IMG/VR virus record: IMGVR_UViG_3300023174_006147
Coordinates: 1 to 64,000 of that record
Direction: 5' to 3' (one strand)
Source of the DNA: a virus
Length of the DNA: 64,000 nucleotides
The notes under the pieces are model-generated. The model searched no databases, was not told where the DNA came from, and saw only the letters and a program-made list of their open reading frames with translations. This document shows positions 38,199 through 60,091 of the stretch, piece after piece (position 1 is the first letter of the stretch; every line of letters starts with the position of its first letter). A program made the position numbers and the translations under genes.

Positions 38199-39617
38199 TT
38201 AGATATCGTAACGAGGATTCATGATGGCCTTCATCATAATTCCAGTAGGAGTAAACTCCTGCATATCAGCAGCAAGCAGTGCCTTGACAATGCTTGGGCT
38301 GAAACCGCTCACGAGTGCAGCACCCGACTTGTCTGCTTTCACCGGAACGTTATCACTAGCGTTCAGGTTCCAGAAGACAACCTGCGGAACAGTATAACCT
38401 GCTTCTGCGTACTTACGTTCGATCATCTGAATTGCAGTGTCGTCGTAGTTACTGCAACAATTAAACTGCATGTCCGAGAGGATAAGCAGCATTTCAGGCA
38501 TTTCACCCTGAGGTACACCGTTCTTGACTGCAACATCAAGGATCTTGTTGAATGCAGCGTGTAGGTTAGTACTCATGCCCCATTCGCTCTTGGCCATCTG
38601 TGCAGCCTTTTCAACAACATTGCCCTTGAGAGTAACTAGTTGAGGACTGGAACTGAAAGTAAGGAAAGTGTCCTTGAACTTGCCAGTGTTCTTGTCCGCA
38701 AGATAGAGACCCAGTGAAACTGCAACGTCAAGGCAAGTAACCTCACTCTTAGAAGAGCTACCACCTGCACGACAAGTCATAGAACCCGAAACATCAACAA
38801 GTGGAAGAATGTTTGCATCCCCAACATAGTTAGGAAGTGCATTCCACTGTGCCACAACGTGATCAAGCTCAGTCTTACCCAGCGAAGGACCATAGTGACG
38901 AATGACGCCCTTAAGAACATCATACGGATATACTGCACCAGCGTTGACCTTGGCAGTAGGATCACCCTTTACCAGCTTGGCAACGTACTCAGCAAACTTA
39001 GGAGTATTGCGAGTAAATGCCTTCTTGTAGCGCGAAGCTGCAAGACTAGGAACATGGTTAAAGTTGATGTTGTCCCAATCCTTAGCACACATCTGAGTTT
39101 CAACAACCTTGGTCAGGTTAACCAGAGTCTTACGATACTGCTTAGGGCTCATACCAAGTGCAGATCGAAGTTCTGCTGCCACTGCGCCCTTGCGAGGCAT
39201 CCACTTGGCGCAAAGACCATTGCCACTGGCAAGTGCTTCTGCGATCAGTGCGTATGCTTCGGTCTTGAGATCGATGGTTTCAAAGACGAGTAGATCGTCC
39301 CATCGGCCAATTTCTGGTACCTTTGCAAGAAGTGCCTTTGCTGCATCGGGGTCAGTCTTTTCCAGCTGAACAAGGATGTCACGGAAAATCTTACGTTCGC
39401 CTGCACCGCCACGAGCGTCACGCGCCCACTGTGCAACGCGCAGTGCAATTTCTCGATTTTCCACGAATGCACCAGTAAAGGCAGGGACGATATTCTTGCC
39501 ACGGCTCGCGCCAATTGCAAAGAAAAGGTCAACGTTCTTGGACGCTGACGACTTAAGAGCCCGCATGCCGTTAGTGGTACGAGCTTCCTGGTTTGCTACT
39601 GCTTCTACAAAATTCAT
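38199..39617 (-). CDS. Ro60/TROVE-like DUF2828 protein with C-terminal vWA domain
   Basis: TTNG, RDARGGAGER, GRWDDL, AKWMPR, MIDAS DVSGSM, SDMQF, VFWNL, SGFS. Confidence 0.8.
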   Translation of the reverse strand: MNFVEAVANQEARTTNGMRALKSSASKNVDLFFAIGASRGKNIVPAFTGAFVENREIALRVAQWARDARGGAGERKIFRDILVQLEKTDPDAAKALLAKVPEIGRWDDLLVFETIDLKTEAYALIAEALASGNGLCAKWMPRKGAVAAELRSALGMSPKQYRKTLVNLTKVVETQMCAKDWDNINFNHVPSLAASRYKKAFTRNTPKFAEYVAKLVKGDPTAKVNAGAVYPYDVLKGVIRHYGPSLGKTELDHVVAQWNALPNYVGDANILPLVDVSGSMTCRAGGSSSKSEVTCLDVAVSLGLYLADKNTGKFKDTFLTFSSSPQLVTLKGNVVEKAAQMAKSEWGMSTNLHAAFNKILDVAVKNGVPQGEMPEMLLILSDMQFNCCSNYDDTAIQMIERKYAEAGYTVPQVVFWNLNASDNVPVKADKSGAALVSGFSPSIVKALLAADMQEFTPTGIMMKAIMNPRYDI

Positions 39618-39630
39618 GTTTATTTCCTTT

Positions 39631-39683
39631 CAGGTTAATTTGGTTTGCTTTATGAATGCAAGTTTCTGTGCTGTTTTTAACCT
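39631..39683 (-). ncRNA. scaffold RNA A1 (payload: CAU anticodon-like hairpin), in the leader of the Ro-like gene
   Basis: AGGTTAA-AAA-CAGCA...TTGCA TTCATAA AGCAA...TTAACCTG. Confidence 0.65.
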
Positions 39684-39948: not shown

Positions 39949-40347
39949 TTAGGTAAACGTCTTTAACGCTTTGATATCGTCACCAACATTGTCTTCCAAA
40001 ATTGGTCCAAGACCTAAGCAAGTAGTTGTTGGTTCATCGAATACTGTGAAACCAGCATCAGTCACAAGACTAGTACCACAGATATCCTTGTACTTTTCTT
40101 GTAGAGCCTTAAGCTCTTCGACGGTATCGACAATTAAGGTAATTTTATAAGCACGATCACCATTCTGGTACTTTTCTGCATCACTAGGTTCGTCAATGGC
40201 AAATCCATGTTCACCAGGAAATCTTTTTACAGAATCCCAAAAACTGTGAAGATAGGCGTGTCCTGCCTGAGTACACATCTTACCACGAATACCGTTCATT
40301 TTCTTTACCGATTCAAGGGCAAAGATACAGTACATTTTAACTTTCAT
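39949..40347 (-). CDS. pth2: peptidyl-tRNA hydrolase, Pth2 type
   Basis: GKMCTQAGHA, KITL, DAGFT, TCLGLGP; start moved to MKVKMY. Confidence 0.85.
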   Translation of the reverse strand: MKVKMYCIFALESVKKMNGIRGKMCTQAGHAYLHSFWDSVKRFPGEHGFAIDEPSDAEKYQNGDRAYKITLIVDTVEELKALQEKYKDICGTSLVTDAGFTVFDEPTTTCLGLGPILEDNVGDDIKALKTFT

Positions 40348-40365
40348 ATCTCTACCTTTCAAAAT

Positions 40366-40443
40366 TGGAGCGCCGGGCGTGATTCGAACACGCGGTGTTA
40401 CTGCTTTGCAGGCAGTTGCATTGGGCCTCTCTGCCACCGACGC
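40366..40443 (-). tRNA. tRNA-Cys(GCA)
   Basis: cloverleaf, U73, CCA. Confidence 0.9.
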
Positions 40444-51172: not shown

Positions 51173-53728
51173 CTAGAATGAATTGCTGTCAACTATCTCC
51201 ATGCCAAGATTTGCTATATAAGCCATTAACTCTTCAATCTCTTGACTGGTTGGATTTAATGTGCCAATAGCTTGATCTAATTGATCAACAGTTATTTTAT
51301 TTGACCGTGCTGCACTCTTAATCAATTGTTGAACAGCAGGTAAATCTCCCAATGGTGTTTTTTTCTTAGCAATATCCTGTATTGGAAAATCTAAAAGTTG
51401 CAATTGTTTGAACCCAATATACTTGGTAGAGCCATCTGAAAAGGTTACATCTGCGATTTTCATTATATTGCCTACATTAGCTATCTTACCAGTTTTGCCG
51501 GCAGCAGGCCCATCAATAACTTTAACAGAATCGCCTTGTTTAAACGAATGGACAGGTATTACTTCAGGTTCAGAAGTTTTAATTTTTTCAATTTCATTAG
51601 GATAAAGAAATGTCTTATCATCAGAATCGTCTAATTTTACTATAACATTGCCACTTTTTTGAATCTGAGTTATTGTGCCAGTTTTTCCTGTATTGTGCGT
51701 TCCTATGATTTTTACCTTATCGCCCTCTGAATATTGTTTAGGTGTTTTTACTTCTGGCTCTGGTTCCCACTTGAGATTGTCTAAGTTCAAATCTGGATCA
51801 TTTTTATCGGGGTTATCAAGTTTTTTAACAGTGAATGTATCATCACCGTATTCGTCTATAGCCTGATCATATTCATTCTGAGTGAGGAATTGTCCCTGAT
51901 AAAGCGGTGTAAGTCCTGGCATAGTAACTTCATAAGCAGCATCTATTAAATTAGGATTTTCAGCTTCGGCTTTAATCTTTTCAATATTTTTTAAGGGAAC
52001 ATCGATGGCAACCTTATTATCAAATTCTACATCAACTAGTGGCTTTGTAGAATAAGCGTATGATACTTCACCAGTTTTACCGGTGTATTTATGATTACCG
52101 ATGATCATAACCTTATCACCGTTTTTAACATCACCAATTTCTAGAGACTTTGGAGCAGCGCCGACTTTTTCAAGACTTGCCAAAGGAACATCATACAATT
52201 TTTTACCGTTGTCCAATTCTAATGTAGTATCTTTAAAAGAATCATGTACATCGGTAACAGTAGCGATATCACCTGCGTTAGAATGCTTGCCAATAATTTT
52301 TACTTTATCGCCTTTTTTAATTTTATCATTGTCAGTTTTTGTATCTAGTATTTTAACTTGGTGTGGCTTAAGAAGACCGTACTCGCCACCCTTGAAGAAT
52401 ATCTCGATGTTACCAGAAGTATACATGTGGGATATAGTTCCAGATTGACCATAGTATGCACTTTTAGTGTCAATAACTTCAACTAAATCACCATATTTAG
52501 GATCAGGAGTTTCTGAATCAGCTTCACTTTCGTGTTTAATATCTTTAATCTTGAAGTCGTTGGTCCAATTTTCACCATCCAACTTCACTGATACTTCGTC
52601 ATAATTGGTGTAAACATACTGTACTTCACCGGACAGCCCGTAATAGTGATTACCCTTGGATTTAACAGTAACACGGTCACCAATTTCATATTTTCCAGGT
52701 GTAATGATTTTAGGCTTGCCTTCGGGATAAACTTGTAGTTCTAGAAACTTCATGATATTTTTCATGAGACTTTCTTGAACAGCATAATATGCACCACGAA
52801 TAAAGACTTCATTTCCAGAAGCAATAGCCCCCGTCAGATCTTCTTGATCTAAATCAAATCCTTTGACTATTCCTTCAGGAGTCATGATGTTTTCAAGCTC
52901 AGTTAAAGGCATGAATTCTTTTGGGATGTCACCTGCTTCAATAGCTTTTTTAATTGAGTTAAGATTGTATTCTAGATTATATTCCCCAAAGAGATTATTA
53001 AAGATAAAATCATATTTTGCTCCTAGTTTTTCTCGATTGGTTAACACGAAATCTTTTAAAGGAGCAAGTAGTTCGTAGTCCAACATTTTTGGATAGGATC
53101 CTCTATCTAAAATTAAATCCTTGGTGTTTCGACTCCAGCTAAATGAAAATCCATCTTTGGGAAACATTACATATACTTTGCCATATCCCGAAGCCTGACT
53201 TTTATCACCTGATACGAATGATGAATTATCTCTTCTTGCTTCGAATCCAGCTGCTTCCATGCCTTTGTTAAAAATATCACTAAGGCGTGAACTACTGCTC
53301 ATTACACGGCGCTCATCAAATGGTTTACCATAGAGAGCATCTTCAGTGGACTTGATGCCGCGATAAAATACTTTGGCTTCAGAAGTTTTAAAATCTGGAT
53401 TTAAATCAGTATAAACTTTGACGATTTCTGTACAATTTTTTGCAATCCTCGTCATTAAATTATAAAATTGGATTGGAAGATTATTCTTTTCACTTTTAAG
53501 ATTTGACTTCTGTTGTTTTAGGGAATCAATTTCTGCATAGAGTCCCTGCTTCATTTTTTCATATTCAGCAGCAACTGAATCAGGCACTTTCATATTATTT
53601 GCAAGGGCCGCGCTTTCTTCATAATCAGTGATTTTCTTCAGCAGTTTTTCTAGTTTTGGCAAGTTAAGGGACATTCCCTTGCGCTCACCCGGCTTCAGTT
53701 CGGATTTAAAGATTTCTATAATTCTCAT
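51173..53728 (-). CDS. putative ADP-ribosyltransferase with KOW repeats, RpoC-like insert and C-terminal sigma70 region 1.1-like domain
   Basis: FYRG / SFVS / NEV triad; about 7 GDxV.I.G...G..G KOW repeats; MRIIEIF leader. Confidence 0.6.
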   Translation of the reverse strand: MRIIEIFKSELKPGERKGMSLNLPKLEKLLKKITDYEESAALANNMKVPDSVAAEYEKMKQGLYAEIDSLKQQKSNLKSEKNNLPIQFYNLMTRIAKNCTEIVKVYTDLNPDFKTSEAKVFYRGIKSTEDALYGKPFDERRVMSSSSRLSDIFNKGMEAAGFEARRDNSSFVSGDKSQASGYGKVYVMFPKDGFSFSWSRNTKDLILDRGSYPKMLDYELLAPLKDFVLTNREKLGAKYDFIFNNLFGEYNLEYNLNSIKKAIEAGDIPKEFMPLTELENIMTPEGIVKGFDLDQEDLTGAIASGNEVFIRGAYYAVQESLMKNIMKFLELQVYPEGKPKIITPGKYEIGDRVTVKSKGNHYYGLSGEVQYVYTNYDEVSVKLDGENWTNDFKIKDIKHESEADSETPDPKYGDLVEVIDTKSAYYGQSGTISHMYTSGNIEIFFKGGEYGLLKPHQVKILDTKTDNDKIKKGDKVKIIGKHSNAGDIATVTDVHDSFKDTTLELDNGKKLYDVPLASLEKVGAAPKSLEIGDVKNGDKVMIIGNHKYTGKTGEVSYAYSTKPLVDVEFDNKVAIDVPLKNIEKIKAEAENPNLIDAAYEVTMPGLTPLYQGQFLTQNEYDQAIDEYGDDTFTVKKLDNPDKNDPDLNLDNLKWEPEPEVKTPKQYSEGDKVKIIGTHNTGKTGTITQIQKSGNVIVKLDDSDDKTFLYPNEIEKIKTSEPEVIPVHSFKQGDSVKVIDGPAAGKTGKIANVGNIMKIADVTFSDGSTKYIGFKQLQLLDFPIQDIAKKKTPLGDLPAVQQLIKSAARSNKITVDQLDQAIGTLNPTSQEIEELMAYIANLGMEIVDSNSF

Positions 53729-53731
53729 AAA

Positions 53732-53745
53732 CATATTTATAAATA
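53732..53745. promoter_or_regulatory. palindromic bidirectional late promoter
   Basis: atatttataaatat gives TATAAATA on both strands, 5-6 nt before two divergent ATGs. Confidence 0.7.
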
Positions 53746-54510: not shown

Positions 54511-54612
54511 CAGGATTGTGTTTTTTGGACGGGATTTGAACCCGCTCAGTTTGCGTTGAAAGCAAATGCTCTACCATTGAGCTACCATAAGGTTTTTTGC
54601 TGAAACAATCCT
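54511..54612 (-). ncRNA. scaffold RNA A4 (D + anticodon UCA + T arms, no acceptor stem)
   Basis: AGGATTG-TTT-CAGCA...TAGCTCAATGGTAGAGC-TTTGC TTTCAAC GCAAA-CGGGTTCAAATCCCG...CAATCCTG. Confidence 0.75.
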
Positions 54613-54627
54613 AGAACTTAAATTAAA

Positions 54628-54752
54628 CAGAGTGTATTGTTCTTTACGTGCTCTACCAGCTGAGCTACCTCCCCGCAGTTGGTGGGGAGAGTTGGACTCG
54701 AACCAACGACACCGTCCTTTTCATGGATAGAATTTTATGCTGAAAACACTCT
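54628..54752 (-). ncRNA. scaffold RNA A5 (circularly permuted, YrlA-like tRNA domain)
   Basis: AGAGTGT-TTT-CAGCA...T arm-TCTCCCC ACCA ACTGC GGGGAGG-D arm...ACACTCTG. Confidence 0.8.
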
Positions 54753-56388: not shown

Positions 56389-56446
56389 ATAATGCTTTCT
56401 ATGTGCTAATTGTAGCGTAGTAAGCATGTTGTGTCAATAAAATAAA

Positions 56447-56924: not shown

Positions 56925-57012
56925 CAGGATTACAGTTTTGAAGGGTTTGAACCTTCTCGTTTTTGAGTTGAAGTCAAAAATTTATCCATAAGATAAGTGC
57001 TGAAATAATCCT
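56925..57012 (-). ncRNA. scaffold RNA A7 (mini D, anticodon UCA, T arm)
   Basis: AGGATTA-TTT-CAGCA...TTTTTGA CTTCAAC TCAAAAA..GAAGGTTCAAACCCTTC...TAATCCTG. Confidence 0.7.
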
Positions 57013-57384: not shown

Positions 57385-57454
57385 TTTCAAAGAACTAACA
57401 AAGCATTGCTGCTTTGTATGTGCTTATTATAATGTACTTATCAACATGTGTCAA
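57385..57454 (-). promoter_or_regulatory. consensus sigma70 promoter + boxB-like hairpin + boxA-like element
   Basis: TTGACA-N17-TATAAT, ACAAAGCA-GCAA-TGCTTTGT, GTTCTTTGAAA. Confidence 0.75.
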
Positions 57455-57790: not shown

Positions 57791-57897
57791 TGGTGGACGC
57801 AACTGGATTCGAACCAGTAAGGCTGCGCGGGCCCGTCCCAATTACATCTCGACACCCATTCGATACGTTGGCTTCGACCCAACCCAATGCTACGCCC
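57791..57897 (-). ncRNA. tRNA-like RNA (acceptor + T arm + CCA, non-tRNA core)
   Basis: GGGCGTA/TGCGTCC ACCA; ACTGGTTCGAATCCAGT. Confidence 0.65.
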
Positions 57898-57906
57898 ATT
57901 TAAATT

Positions 57907-57967
57907 TGGAGGTCTATGTGGGAGTCTAACCCACTTTCAACTATGTTGATTAACAACACGTAAGACC
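57907..57967 (-). ncRNA. minimal tRNA-like RNA
   Basis: GGTCT/AGACC TCCA; T-like arm GTGGGTTAGACTCCCAC. Confidence 0.5.
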
Positions 57968-58143: not shown

Positions 58144-58259
58144 TGGTGTGCAGCACTGGAGTCGAACCAGCCAATAACAAAACCATTAACATAGCGTATT
58201 TGTTTATATAACGCTACTGTGGATTTATCTGCTTCCCTTCCCAGAGGATTTCACTACAC
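58144..58259 (-). ncRNA. tRNA-like RNA (acceptor + T arm + CCA)
   Basis: GTGTAGT/GCTGCAC ACCA; CTGGTTCGACTCCAG. Confidence 0.6.
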
Positions 58260-58266
58260 ATAAAAA

Positions 58267-58360
58267 TGGCGGGACTTTTGGAATCGAACCATAACATGAT
58301 ACATGTTGCTGAAAACATTCGTTGGACGGAATGCTCCTACACCCAAGTAGGTTGAGTCCC
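58267..58360 (-). ncRNA. CCA-ending tRNA-like RNA with internal permuted family-A module
   Basis: GGGACT/AGTCCC GCCA; GCATTC..GAATGT-TTT-CAGCA. Confidence 0.7.
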
Positions 58361-58368
58361 ATTAAAAT

Positions 58369-58461
58369 TGGTGGAGGGAATTGGAGTCGAACCAATTAAT
58401 TTTGTGATGCGGTAGATATTCACTGGACTGAATACATTCTGCGCCATGCAGGATTCCCTCC
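58369..58461 (-). ncRNA. CCA-ending tRNA-like RNA with internal permuted family-A module
   Basis: GGAGGGA/TCCCTCC ACCA; GTATTCA-GTCCAG-TGAATAT-CTA-CCGCA. Confidence 0.7.
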
Positions 58462-58552: not shown

Positions 58553-58642
58553 TGGTGTCAGTGTGGGAATTGAACCCACTCGGACTCTACCCTCTCGACG
58601 CCTGAGAAAGAAGGGAGCCGGTTAAGCCTAACCAATACTGAC
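58553..58642 (-). ncRNA. tRNA-like RNA (acceptor + T arm + CCA)
   Basis: GTCAGT/ACTGAC ACCA; GTGGGTTCAATTCCCAC. Confidence 0.6.
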
Positions 58643-58648
58643 ATAAAA

Positions 58649-58779
58649 TGGTGGCAGCATCACCGTTTCAGCATTATTGTAGAGACTTCAAAGTTTTAGA
58701 TGTATGCCTACACCAAACTCTACTGCTTTCACCCGATGGCTTGTTCAATGTTAACTAGTATAGAACAAGTTACGCTGCC
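58649..58779 (-). ncRNA. structured RNA with acceptor-like stem and CCA
   Basis: GGCAGCG/TGCTGCC ACCA; internal CTTGTTC/GAACAAG and GTAGAG/CTCTAC helices. Confidence 0.55.
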
Positions 58780-59279: not shown

Positions 59280-59359
59280 TAAACTTTATAAAAATCATTA
59301 TATACTAACTTATTTATTATGTCAATATCTTTGTTTACTTAAACAGAATAAATATCTAC

Positions 59360-59959: not shown

Positions 59960-59969
59960 TAATTTAAAA

Positions 59970-60091
59970 CAGGATATACATTTTTTCGTTGCTCTACCAG
60001 ACTGAGCTACTTCCCCATAGGTGGCGGGGAAGGCAGGATTTGAACCTACGACCAACGGCTTGACATGCTAAAATAATGCTGTAGATATCCT
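59970..60091 (-). ncRNA. scaffold RNA A9 (circularly permuted, YrlA-like tRNA domain)
   Basis: AGGATAT-CTA-CAGCA...CGTTG-T arm-CTTCCCC GCCA CCTAT GGGGAAG-D arm-CAACG...ATATCCTG. Confidence 0.8.

What the first reader, a model, noticed from the sequence alone, without database searches (positions are those of the whole stretch)
58267..58461. Inside-out versions: CCA-ending tRNA-like RNAs with the family-A module in place of the anticodon arm
Two adjacent RNAs have normal acceptor stems, T arms and CCA. Internally they carry the same helix-NNN-CNGCA with strand order swapped and closed by a GTCCAR loop: GCATTC-C-GTCCAA-C-GAATGT-TTT-CAGCA and GTATTCA-GTCCAG-TGAATAT-CTA-CCGCA. These are circular permutations of A5/A9. 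They give independent evidence that the module is a structural protein-binding site rather than a DNA repeat or a terminator.
Basis: seen in the sequence. Interest (0 to 1): 0.8.

Follow-up and report, generated by a model that had tools for sequence, protein, structure and literature searches.

The report
tRNA-shaped RNAs carrying a Ro-type handle
Two odd "tRNA genes" in a giant phage are conserved tRNA-shaped small RNAs with no anticodon arm; in its place sits the short docking motif found on the small RNAs encoded beside the phage's Ro60-shaped protein, so they are probably a back-to-front, undescribed form of tRNA-mimicking Y RNA.

Summary
On the minus strand, RNA1 (58461-58369, 93 nt) and RNA2 (58360-58267, 94 nt) each have an acceptor stem, a D-like arm with GG, a T arm and an encoded CCA. 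Instead of an anticodon arm each has a 6-7 bp hairpin followed by N3-CNGCA. ARAGORN calls neither a tRNA, and neither reaches significance against any Rfam family.

This hairpin is the "handle" of the nine family-A RNAs with its far end closed. Both forms share an ATYC/GRAT box, an N-G(U) right after the ATYC strand, and exactly 5 nt between GRAT and CNGCA.

I found 15 closed handles in related phages, including two cultured ones. They show 96% pairing and four covarying pairs. The GTCCAR loop is not conserved.

Rfam's YrlA model hits A5 and A9 over the tRNA-like core only. After RNase P cutting they would be nicked equivalents of RNA1 and RNA2.

The DUF2828 protein folds like Ro60, and 70 of 72 related loci carry a handle just upstream of its gene. 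Binding is inferred, not shown.

Verdict: a new variant of the Ro60/Y-RNA kind. This scan has noted the same design on other phage DNA; I found no paper describing it.

The parts
58369..58461 (-). RNA1, a 93-nt tRNA-shaped handle RNA: acceptor 58455-58461 with 58373-58379; D-like arm 58439-58451; T arm 58380-58396; A-CCA 58369-58372
   Evidence: orthologue in L125:7304-7396
58408..58435 (-). Closed handle of RNA1: helix 58429-58435 with 58416-58422, loop GTCCAG 58423-58428, CTA 58413-58415, CCGCA 58408-58412
58267..58360 (-). RNA2, a 94-nt tRNA-shaped handle RNA: acceptor 58355-58360 with 58271-58276; D-like arm 58336-58351; extra hairpin 58294-58306; T arm 58277-58293; G-CCA 58267-58270
   Evidence: no orthologue in L125
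58307..58334 (-). Closed handle of RNA2: helix 58329-58334 with 58315-58320, loop CGTCCAAC 58321-58328, TTT 58312-58314, CAGCA 58307-58311
59969..60091 (-). A9: open handle carrying a circularly permuted tRNA-like domain (T arm, acceptor 3' strand, G-CCA, 5-nt spacer, acceptor 5' strand, D arm)
   Evidence: Rfam YrlA 43.8 bits, E 1.8e-7, model positions 23-87 of 114; permuted alignment to RNA1 z 4.4 against -0.2 unpermuted
54627..54752 (-). A5: open handle carrying a circularly permuted tRNA-like domain with an internal A-CCA
   Evidence: Rfam YrlA 35.2 bits, E 5.5e-5
38199..39617 (-). DUF2828 + DUF7788 protein (472 aa), Ro60-fold, the candidate handle-binding partner
   Evidence: Pfam; PHROG 850 'RNA-binding protein'; AF2 model pLDDT 92.5; the top 13 Foldseek PDB hits are all Ro60/TROVE at full length
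39631..39683 (-). A1: open handle in the 5' leader of the DUF2828 gene, directly before its ribosome-binding site
   Evidence: 70 of 72 related loci have a handle motif within 450 nt upstream, usually about 80 nt
59297..59325 (-). Consensus sigma-70-type promoter (TTGACA-17-TATAAT) heading the tRNA operon that contains RNA1 and RNA2

Best explanation
RNA1 and RNA2 are transcribed inside a tRNA operon. They are probably cut out and stabilised like tRNAs (RNase P at the 5' end, 3' trimming to the encoded CCA) and fold into a tRNA-like top half: acceptor/T-arm stack plus a D-like arm at the elbow.

Where the anticodon arm should be they carry a hairpin-closed copy of the 'handle'. The handle is a 7-bp helix with an ATYC/GRAT box, an N-G(U) after the ATYC strand, and a single-stranded CNGCA exactly 5 nt after GRAT.

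The handle is most likely the docking site of the phage's Ro60-fold DUF2828/vWA protein. If so, the particle would be a Y-RNA-like RNP in which the protein sits at the 'anticodon' end and a free acceptor-CCA/elbow is displayed to tRNA-recognising enzymes, as a tether or as a bait.

A5 and A9 would give the same object in two pieces after RNase P cleavage, as M. smegmatis YrlA does.

Shown: the anatomy, conservation, covariation, permutation relation, operon context, protein fold and synteny.
Inferred: processing, protein binding and the adaptor or bait role.
For: - Anatomy and folds.
- Operon: the RNAs lie 5-8 nt from neighbouring tRNAs, downstream of a consensus promoter.
- Conservation: 15 closed handles in related phages, 96.2% of cells paired, 4 pairs with changes on both sides, 0 of 500 shuffles as good, and slid controls at 35-54%.
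- Invariant positions: the loop G and the C-GCA of CNGCA.
- Same spacing and box as the nine open handles.
- RNA1 orthologue: handle unchanged, one compensatory T-stem pair.
- YrlA model hits A5/A9 over the tRNA-like core only.
- DUF2828 model matches Ro60/TROVE at full length: 1yvr E 7e-8, TM 0.64; also phage phiLo Ro60 and Rsr.
- Handle density is 4.4 per kb in the 450 nt before DUF2828 genes against 0.21 per kb elsewhere; 70 of 72 loci have one.
- Closed forms sit right beside DUF2828 in Synechococcus phage BUCT-ZZ01 and Citrobacter phage Ci1.
- Precedents: YrlA is cut by RNase P and receives CCA (PMC4201824); phage Ro60 binds phage Y-like RNAs (PMC12135203).
Against: - There are no binding, expression or processing data.
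- The handle lacks the GNCGAA/CGAA Ro motif of known Y RNAs, and Pfam TROVE does not hit the protein.
- RNA1 and RNA2 lie 18.7 kb from the DUF2828 gene.
- Several complete DUF2828 phages gave no closed-handle hit with my short models.
- Six of the 15 aligned handles were found with a pattern that fixed the helix sequence, so they add no covariation.
- RNA2 has no orthologue in the one syntenic relative available.
- The mini forms in relatives lack D and T arms, so the tRNA shape may not be essential.
Confidence: 0.55

Rival explanations
1. The RNAs are real and functional, but the handle is not the ligand of DUF2828. It could be bound by another phage or host factor (an RNA-processing or modifying enzyme, a ligase, PNPase), or it could be a self-contained tertiary or processing signal.
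For: No binding data exist. The handle differs from every known Ro-binding motif (PMC4201824, PMC12135203). A8 resembles Dictyostelium Class I RNA (28.8 bits), whose only shown direct binder is an RRM protein (PMC7919456). RNA1 and RNA2 are far from the DUF2828 gene.
Against: The handle sits in the leader of DUF2828 in 70 of 72 loci. The protein has the Ro60 fold. Closed forms are directly adjacent to DUF2828 in two cultured phages.
Confidence: 0.2
2. The tRNA frame is only a natural expression and stability scaffold (RNase P/CCA processing, nuclease resistance). The closed handles then act as extra copies that buffer or regulate the free pool of the Ro-like protein, for example relieving its binding to its own mRNA leader, without displaying anything to tRNA enzymes.
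For: Mini forms in relatives keep only a 6-bp acceptor stem, the handle and G-CCA (L006:388-447, L088, L098). A1 sits in the DUF2828 leader. D arms, linkers and extra hairpins vary freely.
Against: D-loop GG and canonical T loops are kept in all the full-length forms I examined. Some relatives add anticodon-like 7-nt loops, which suggests the tRNA likeness is used.
Confidence: 0.15
3. They are working tRNAs: decoders with odd loops (for example CCA inside GTCCAR), suppressors, or intron-bearing tRNAs whose handle is spliced out.
For: Acceptor, T arm and CCA are intact. ARAGORN calls the L125 orthologue 'tRNA-SeC(tca)'. Some relatives do carry an anticodon-like hairpin after the handle.
Against: RNA1 has no hairpin other than the handle. 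RNA2's extra hairpin has a 3-nt loop. The handle helix is 6-7 bp with 6-8-nt loops, replaced by tetraloops in relatives. The tRNA model does not reach E 10. No splice-motif geometry is visible.
Confidence: 0.04
4. They are decaying tRNA pseudogenes or chance look-alikes with no function.
For: Phage tRNA arrays do hold degenerate copies. RNA2 has mismatches in its acceptor and T stems and no orthologue in L125.
Against: The handle recurs with covariation in unrelated tRNA frames across phages whose DUF2828 proteins are only 48-73% identical. Compensatory changes keep the acceptor and T stems. The motif is about fourfold enriched over chance.
Confidence: 0.04

Closest known systems
YrlA-type bacterial and phage Y RNAs with Ro60/Rsr (Rfam RF02553; Chen et al. 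2014, PMC4201824)
   Same: A small RNA that combines a protein-docking helix with a tRNA-like T arm, D arm and acceptor stem, in a genome that encodes a Ro60-fold protein. M. smegmatis YrlA is cut by RNase P and gains CCA, giving a free acceptor end as here.
   Different: In YrlA the RNA ends form the Ro-binding stem and the acceptor is closed. Here the ends form the acceptor-CCA and the docking helix is closed by a loop. The handle has CNGCA rather than GNCGAA. The protein is Pfam DUF2828/DUF7788, not TROVE. The YrlA model does not hit RNA1 or RNA2.
Thermus phage phiLo Ro60 with Yrl1/Yrl2 (PMC12135203; PDB 9KOP, 9L5Y)
   Same: A phage-encoded Ro60-fold protein with phage-encoded partner RNAs. 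It is among the best structural matches of the DUF2828 model.
   Different: The phiLo RNAs are stem-bulge-stem Y RNAs with a CGAA motif, located next to the gene. No tRNA-shaped, CCA-ended form has been described there.
Family-A 'handle' RNAs of this phage (A1-A9), especially A5 and A9
   Same: The same handle (ATYC/GRAT box, N-G(U), 5-nt spacing, CNGCA), the same strand and the same operons. A5 and A9 carry the same tRNA parts.
   Different: The open handle is formed by the RNA termini and the acceptor is closed by a spacer. RNA1 and RNA2 have the reverse connectivity.
Dictyostelium Class I RNAs (Rfam RF01414; PMC7919456)
   Same: A short terminal stem, a conserved motif containing CAGCA right after the 5' strand, and a 3' CUGU. 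The N-G-U that opens the closed loops matches that tail. A8 scores 28.8 bits.
   Different: These are eukaryotic, about 60 nt, with no tRNA parts. The stem joins the termini. RNA1 and RNA2 are not hit, and A8 is below the gathering score of 41.5.
Engineered tRNA scaffolds for RNA expression (own knowledge: Ponchon and Dardel, 2007)
   Same: A tRNA body whose anticodon arm is replaced by a foreign hairpin, so that the chimera is processed and stabilised like a tRNA.
   Different: Those are man-made. Here the design is natural and conserved.

Membership tests
Canonical tRNA (Rfam RF00005) | Cloverleaf with a 5-bp anticodon stem and a 7-nt loop (U33, purine 37), detected by tRNA models | tested here: not met
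   Not called by ARAGORN. Rfam tRNA did not reach the gathering score or E 10. The helix is 6-7 bp with 6-8-nt loops.
Canonical tRNA (Rfam RF00005) | 7-bp acceptor stem, discriminator base, CCA, and a T arm with a TTCRANY loop | tested here: met
   RNA2 has one mismatch in each stem.
YrlA Y RNA (Rfam RF02553) | The 5' and 3' ends pair to form the Ro-binding stem, and the acceptor-like stem is closed | tested here: not met
   The ends form the acceptor stem with CCA and the docking helix is capped by a loop.
YrlA Y RNA (Rfam RF02553) | A conserved GNCGAAN0-1G / CGAA motif in the Ro-binding region | tested here: not met
   Read from alignment A5. CGAA occurs in only 3 of 15 closed handles, by overlap of loop and box. 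The conserved single strand is CNGCA.
YrlA Y RNA (Rfam RF02553) | A match to the family covariance model | tested here: not met
   No YrlA hit on RNA1 or RNA2 at E up to 10 and up to 5. A9 and A5 hit at 43.8 and 35.2 bits, below the gathering score of 69, over the tRNA-like core only.
YrlA Y RNA (Rfam RF02553) | Encoded beside, and bound by, a Ro60 orthologue | tested here: inconclusive
   A Ro60-fold gene lies 18.7 kb away in the same contig. Closed forms are adjacent to it in BUCT-ZZ01 and Ci1. Binding cannot be tested here.
DUF2828-associated handle RNAs (family A; undescribed) | A 7-bp helix with an ATYC/GRAT box and variable, covarying outer pairs | tested here: met
DUF2828-associated handle RNAs (family A; undescribed) | Single-stranded CNGCA exactly 5 nt after GRAT, and N-G(U) after the ATYC strand | tested here: met
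   In candidate open handles of relatives, G follows the helix in 174 of 296 (this set includes false positives).
DUF2828-associated handle RNAs (family A; undescribed) | Occurs in phages that encode DUF2828 | tested here: met
   The own contig, G001, G002, G023, G051 and G055, plus two cultured phages, hold both. Absence in phages without DUF2828 was not surveyed.
Dictyostelium Class I RNA (Rfam RF01414) | A terminal stem joining the 5' and 3' ends, an 11-nt motif, and a model match | tested here: not met
   No hit on RNA1 or RNA2. Only A8 hits, at 28.8 bits against a gathering score of 41.5.

The most novel reading that the evidence does not exclude
The DUF2828 protein and its handle RNAs form a second, undescribed kind of Ro60/Y-RNA particle. 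RNA1 and RNA2 are its single-chain, CCA-ended (possibly chargeable) tRNA-shaped members. Such a particle would present tRNA top halves to intercept host tRNA-targeting defence nucleases or to recruit repair or degradation enzymes during infection. The same handle grammar would also explain what Dictyostelium Class I RNAs bind.
Probability: 0.2. Interest if true: 0.85.

Novelty: new variant of a known kind. Interest (0 to 1): 0.64.

Why it matters
Ro60/Y-RNA particles are conserved from bacteria to humans, yet it is still unclear what the tRNA-like part of bacterial Y RNAs is for. Here the same docking handle appears in both connectivities: termini in the handle, or termini in a CCA-ended acceptor stem.

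That makes two things testable. One is whether the protein reads the helix, the G and CNGCA rather than RNA ends. The other is whether the displayed object is a tRNA top half with a free acceptor end.

DUF2828 homologues occur in about 700 sequenced cultured phages of E. coli, Salmonella, Listeria, Staphylococcus, Mycobacterium and others. Closed-handle RNAs lie next to the gene in a cyanophage of S. elongatus PCC 7942 and in a T4-like Citrobacter phage, so direct experiments are possible.

There is also a practical point: these genes are currently annotated as 'tRNA-OTHER', 'tRNA-Pseudo' or 'tRNA-SeC'.

Tried and rejected
- blastn of the region against 50,697 phage records found only ordinary tRNAs.
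- blastn of the two RNAs in five large related phage records found nothing.
I therefore could not reach the 97%, 93% and 85% relatives seen in protein searches. A TilS-based search gave one syntenic relative, L125.
- Model R1 hits below about 23 bits were mostly coding-sequence false positives. The exceptions at 19-23 bits were L098, L031/L034/L037, L040-L044 and L107. L090 and most of the 36 pattern hits were chance matches in genes.
- A Trp-like reading (CCA inside GTCCAR plus G73) is rejected because the loop is not conserved.
- A terminator reading is rejected. There is no call at the hairpins, the stems are AU-rich, and RNA1 has no U tract.
- No parent tRNA could be identified among the phage's 40 tRNAs.
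- Pairing of CNGCA with the loop, the D arm or the 3' end: I could find no consistent partner by eye.
- DUF2828 has no sequence match to any PDB chain; only the fold comparison shows Ro60.
- Literature searches for DUF2828 and for permuted tRNA in phages turned up no description of this system.

Full report
**What the window is.** It is the first 64 kb of an 84.5-kb IMG/VR viral contig that CheckV estimates at 22% complete, so the phage is a jumbo phage. About 42 tRNA genes lie on the minus strand between 40 and 64 kb, nearly all with an encoded CCA.

**Observation.** Read on the minus strand, the finding's coordinates hold two adjacent RNAs separated by 8 nt.
- RNA1 (58461-58369, 93 nt): a 7-bp acceptor stem, a D-like arm (4 bp, loop ATGGC), a 7-bp hairpin with loop GTCCAG, then CTA-CCGCA, an 11-nt linker, a canonical T arm and A-CCA.
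- RNA2 (58360-58267, 94 nt): a 6-bp acceptor stem plus a C.A mismatch, a D-like arm (5 bp, loop TTGGGT), a 6-bp hairpin with loop CGTCCAAC, then TTT-CAGCA, a short extra hairpin, a T arm with one A.A mismatch and G-CCA.

Minimum-energy folds reproduce these shapes. ARAGORN does not call either RNA. The Rfam tRNA model does not reach even E = 10 on them, and no other Rfam family matches. The quoted strings and coordinates are exact.

**The module.** Their termini pair as (A)GGATnn...nnATCC-TG-TTT, and the 5' strand is followed by N3-CNGCA. Comparing them with RNA1 and RNA2 shows one grammar in both connectivities:
- a helix with an ATYC/GRAT box and 2-3 variable outer pairs;
- an N-G(U) immediately after the ATYC strand;
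- exactly 5 nt between GRAT and CNGCA.

GRAT-N5-CNGCA occurs 14 times in the window against 3.3 expected, with 0 of 100 shuffles reaching 14. Nine of the 14 are on the minus strand in the RNA region, and two of those are RNA1 and RNA2. In the closed forms the loop begins with the same N-G-U that forms the 3' tail of the open forms. The closed handle therefore looks like an open handle whose tail has been joined to its 5' end by one to three nucleotides.

**Permutation.** A5 and A9 carry T arm, acceptor 3' strand, N-CCA, a 5-nt spacer, acceptor 5' strand and D arm inside the open handle. They are circularly permuted tRNA-like domains.
- Rfam's YrlA model hits A9 (43.8 bits, E 1.8e-7) and A5 (35.2 bits, E 5.5e-5), but only over model positions 23-87 or 23-89 of 114. 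That is the tRNA-like core without the Ro-binding stem.
- When A9 is permuted at its acceptor loop inside a script, it aligns to RNA1 with z 4.4, against -0.2 unpermuted. A5 aligned to RNA2 gives 4.6 against 1.4.
- M. smegmatis YrlA is cut by RNase P in its acceptor loop and receives CCA (PMC4201824). By analogy, processed A5 and A9 would be nicked two-piece equivalents of RNA1 and RNA2. That last step is inference.

**Relatives.** DUF2828 homologues mark 336 stretches in IMG/VR. Using two covariance models, two DNA patterns and whole-record searches, I found closed handles inside CCA-ended acceptor stems in many of these phages.
- An RNA1 orthologue in the syntenic contig L125. Its first 46 nt are identical; N3, the N of CNGCA and the linker have changed; the T stem has one compensatory pair; and the 3' end is ACC without the last A. 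L125 has no RNA2 orthologue.
- Full tRNA-shaped forms in L131/L031, L132, L146, L154, L160, L155, L175, L176 and L168.
- Mini forms of about 60 nt that keep only a 6-bp acceptor stem, the handle and G-CCA: L006 in a complete 354-kb genome, L088/L089 and L098.
- Two cultured phages. Synechococcus phage BUCT-ZZ01 has two adjacent copies just downstream of its DUF2828 gene. Citrobacter phage Ci1 has one beside the gene.

On the alignment of 15 closed handles, 96.2% of cells pair, four pairs change on both sides, no shuffle of 500 does as well, and slid controls pair at 35-54%. Three box pairs, the first loop G and the C, G, C and A of CNGCA are invariant. The G.U pairs would be A.C on the other strand, so the constraint acts on RNA made from the tRNA strand.

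Two caveats apply. Six of the 15 sequences came from a pattern that fixed the helix, so the covariation rests on the other nine. The loop is GTCCAR only in RNA1, RNA2, the L125 orthologue and two minis; elsewhere it is a GNNA-like tetraloop or another loop, so it is not part of the module. Some relatives add a 4-bp hairpin with a 7-nt anticodon-like loop after the handle (loop triplets UGA, GUC, GUA, CAU). RNA1 has none, and RNA2's extra hairpin has a 3-nt loop.

**Expression context.** A perfect TTGACA-17-TATAAT promoter lies at 59325-59297 on the minus strand. No terminator-like site is called at the handle hairpins. RNA1 and RNA2 are spaced 5-8 nt from their neighbours, like the tRNAs around them. 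Co-transcription and tRNA-type processing are therefore plausible but not shown.

**The protein.** The 472-aa product of 38199-39617 (minus strand) matches Pfam DUF2828 and DUF7788 and PHROG 850 'RNA-binding protein'. It has no sequence match to any PDB chain. An AlphaFold2 model built from 100 diverse homologues (pLDDT 92.5, pTM 0.91) has as its top 13 Foldseek matches only Ro60/TROVE proteins aligned at full length. These are Xenopus Ro (E 7e-8, TM 0.64), Thermus phage phiLo Ro60, Deinococcus Rsr and human Ro60.

In 70 of 72 related loci a handle motif lies within 450 nt upstream of this gene, usually about 80 nt before it. The density is 4.4 per kb there against 0.21 per kb elsewhere on the same strand. 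In this window A1 sits directly before the ribosome-binding site. This resembles the Ro60/Y-RNA gene arrangement described for bacteria and phages (PMC4201824, PMC12135203) and suggests autoregulation. It is still synteny, not binding.

**Best explanation and rivals.**
- Best (0.55): RNA1 and RNA2 are tRNA-processed, tRNA-shaped partner RNAs of the Ro60-fold protein. The protein docks at the 'anticodon' end, and a free acceptor-CCA and elbow are displayed.
- Rival (0.2): the handle serves another ligand or a structural role.
- Rival (0.15): the tRNA frame is only a stability scaffold, and the closed handles buffer the protein.
- Rival (0.04): they are working or intron-bearing tRNAs.
- Rival (0.04): they are decaying pseudogenes.

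The last two are disfavoured by the missing anticodon loop, the variable loops, the covariation and the recurrence of the handle in unrelated tRNA frames.

**Comparison with what is known.** The closest family is YrlA, but RNA1 and RNA2 fail its defining features: ends in the Ro stem, the GNCGAA motif and a model match. They may work like YrlA without being members.

A8 gives a sub-threshold match to Dictyostelium Class I RNA (28.8 bits). That consensus also has a terminal stem, a CAGCA-containing motif and a 3' CUGU (PMC7919456). This lead was raised by earlier notes of this scan, and I tested it only to that extent.

I found no paper on DUF2828 as an RNA-binding partner or on such RNAs. Earlier notes of this scan describe non-permuted, CCA-ended handle tRNAs in other phage genomes, so the design was seen before on other DNA.
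- the shared N-G(U) and fixed spacing;
- the mini forms;
- the RNA1 orthologue;
- the cultured-phage examples.

**Limits.** My handle models are short and probably miss divergent copies.

Noticed in passing
L006:388-447(+); L088:7341-7400(+) (same as L089); L098:1491-1547(-): Mini handle RNAs of about 60 nt in related phages. They have only a 6-bp acceptor stem, an A-rich linker, the closed handle and G-CCA, with no D or T arm. Each lies right after a tRNA and before an open-handle RNA.
   Followed up: partly
window 54520-54591 and 56932-57002 (-): The two ARAGORN 'tRNA-SeC(tca)' calls are the cargo of open-handle RNAs A4 and A7. These are acceptor-less tRNA look-alikes held in the handle, not free-standing suppressor tRNAs.
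   Followed up: partly
window 57791-57897, 57907-57967, 58144-58259, 58553-58642, 58649-58779 (-): Further CCA-ended RNAs with acceptor stems and mostly T arms but unrelated cores. Four of the five (all but 58649-58779) have recognisable orthologues in the syntenic contig L125 (6700-8000), some nearly identical, so they are conserved too.
   Followed up: partly
window 39631-39683 (-); L002-L081 upstream of the DUF2828 match: An open handle sits about 80 nt before the DUF2828 coding sequence in 70 of 72 related loci, directly before the ribosome-binding site here. This suggests the protein may regulate its own mRNA.
   Followed up: partly
L132, L168, L176, L186 (Synechococcus phage BUCT-ZZ01): In some relatives the closed handle is followed by a 4-bp hairpin with a 7-nt anticodon-like loop (AUUGAAA, AUGUCAA, CUGUAAA, AUCAUAA). 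In these the handle is a side arm on an otherwise nearly complete tRNA.
   Followed up: no
L125:7304-7396(+): The RNA1 orthologue ends ACC-T, lacking the terminal A of CCA, so it would need a CCA-adding enzyme. ARAGORN labels it tRNA-SeC(tca).
   Followed up: no
L181 (Serratia phage BF, KY630187.1 99795-103003): In this 357-kb cultured phage the DUF2828 gene lies two genes downstream of an annotated RNA ligase. This fits a link to RNA repair.
   Followed up: no
L178 and L179 (Citrobacter phage Ci1, Cronobacter phage S13): GenBank annotates 113-121-nt 'tRNA-OTHER', 'tRNA-Pseudo' and a 121-nt 'tRNA-Ser' just downstream of the DUF2828 gene. These are probably handle-bearing tRNA-shaped RNAs that have been mis-annotated.
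   Followed up: partly
window 59297-59325, 57426-57454, 56409-56437 (-): Two perfect sigma-70 consensus promoters (12 of 12) and one 11-of-12 match head successive blocks of the tRNA/small-RNA region. This implies transcription by host RNA polymerase.
   Followed up: no
window 51173-53734 (-): An 853-aa protein with several weak KOW-like repeats and a C-terminal stretch resembling sigma-70 region 1.1. All matches are below the Pfam cut-offs, and the function is unknown.
   Followed up: no
window 39949-40437 (-): The PTH2-type peptidyl-tRNA hydrolase ORF, as listed from a GTG start, overlaps tRNA-Cys (40366-40443). The real start is probably an internal Met about 30 codons in.
   Followed up: no
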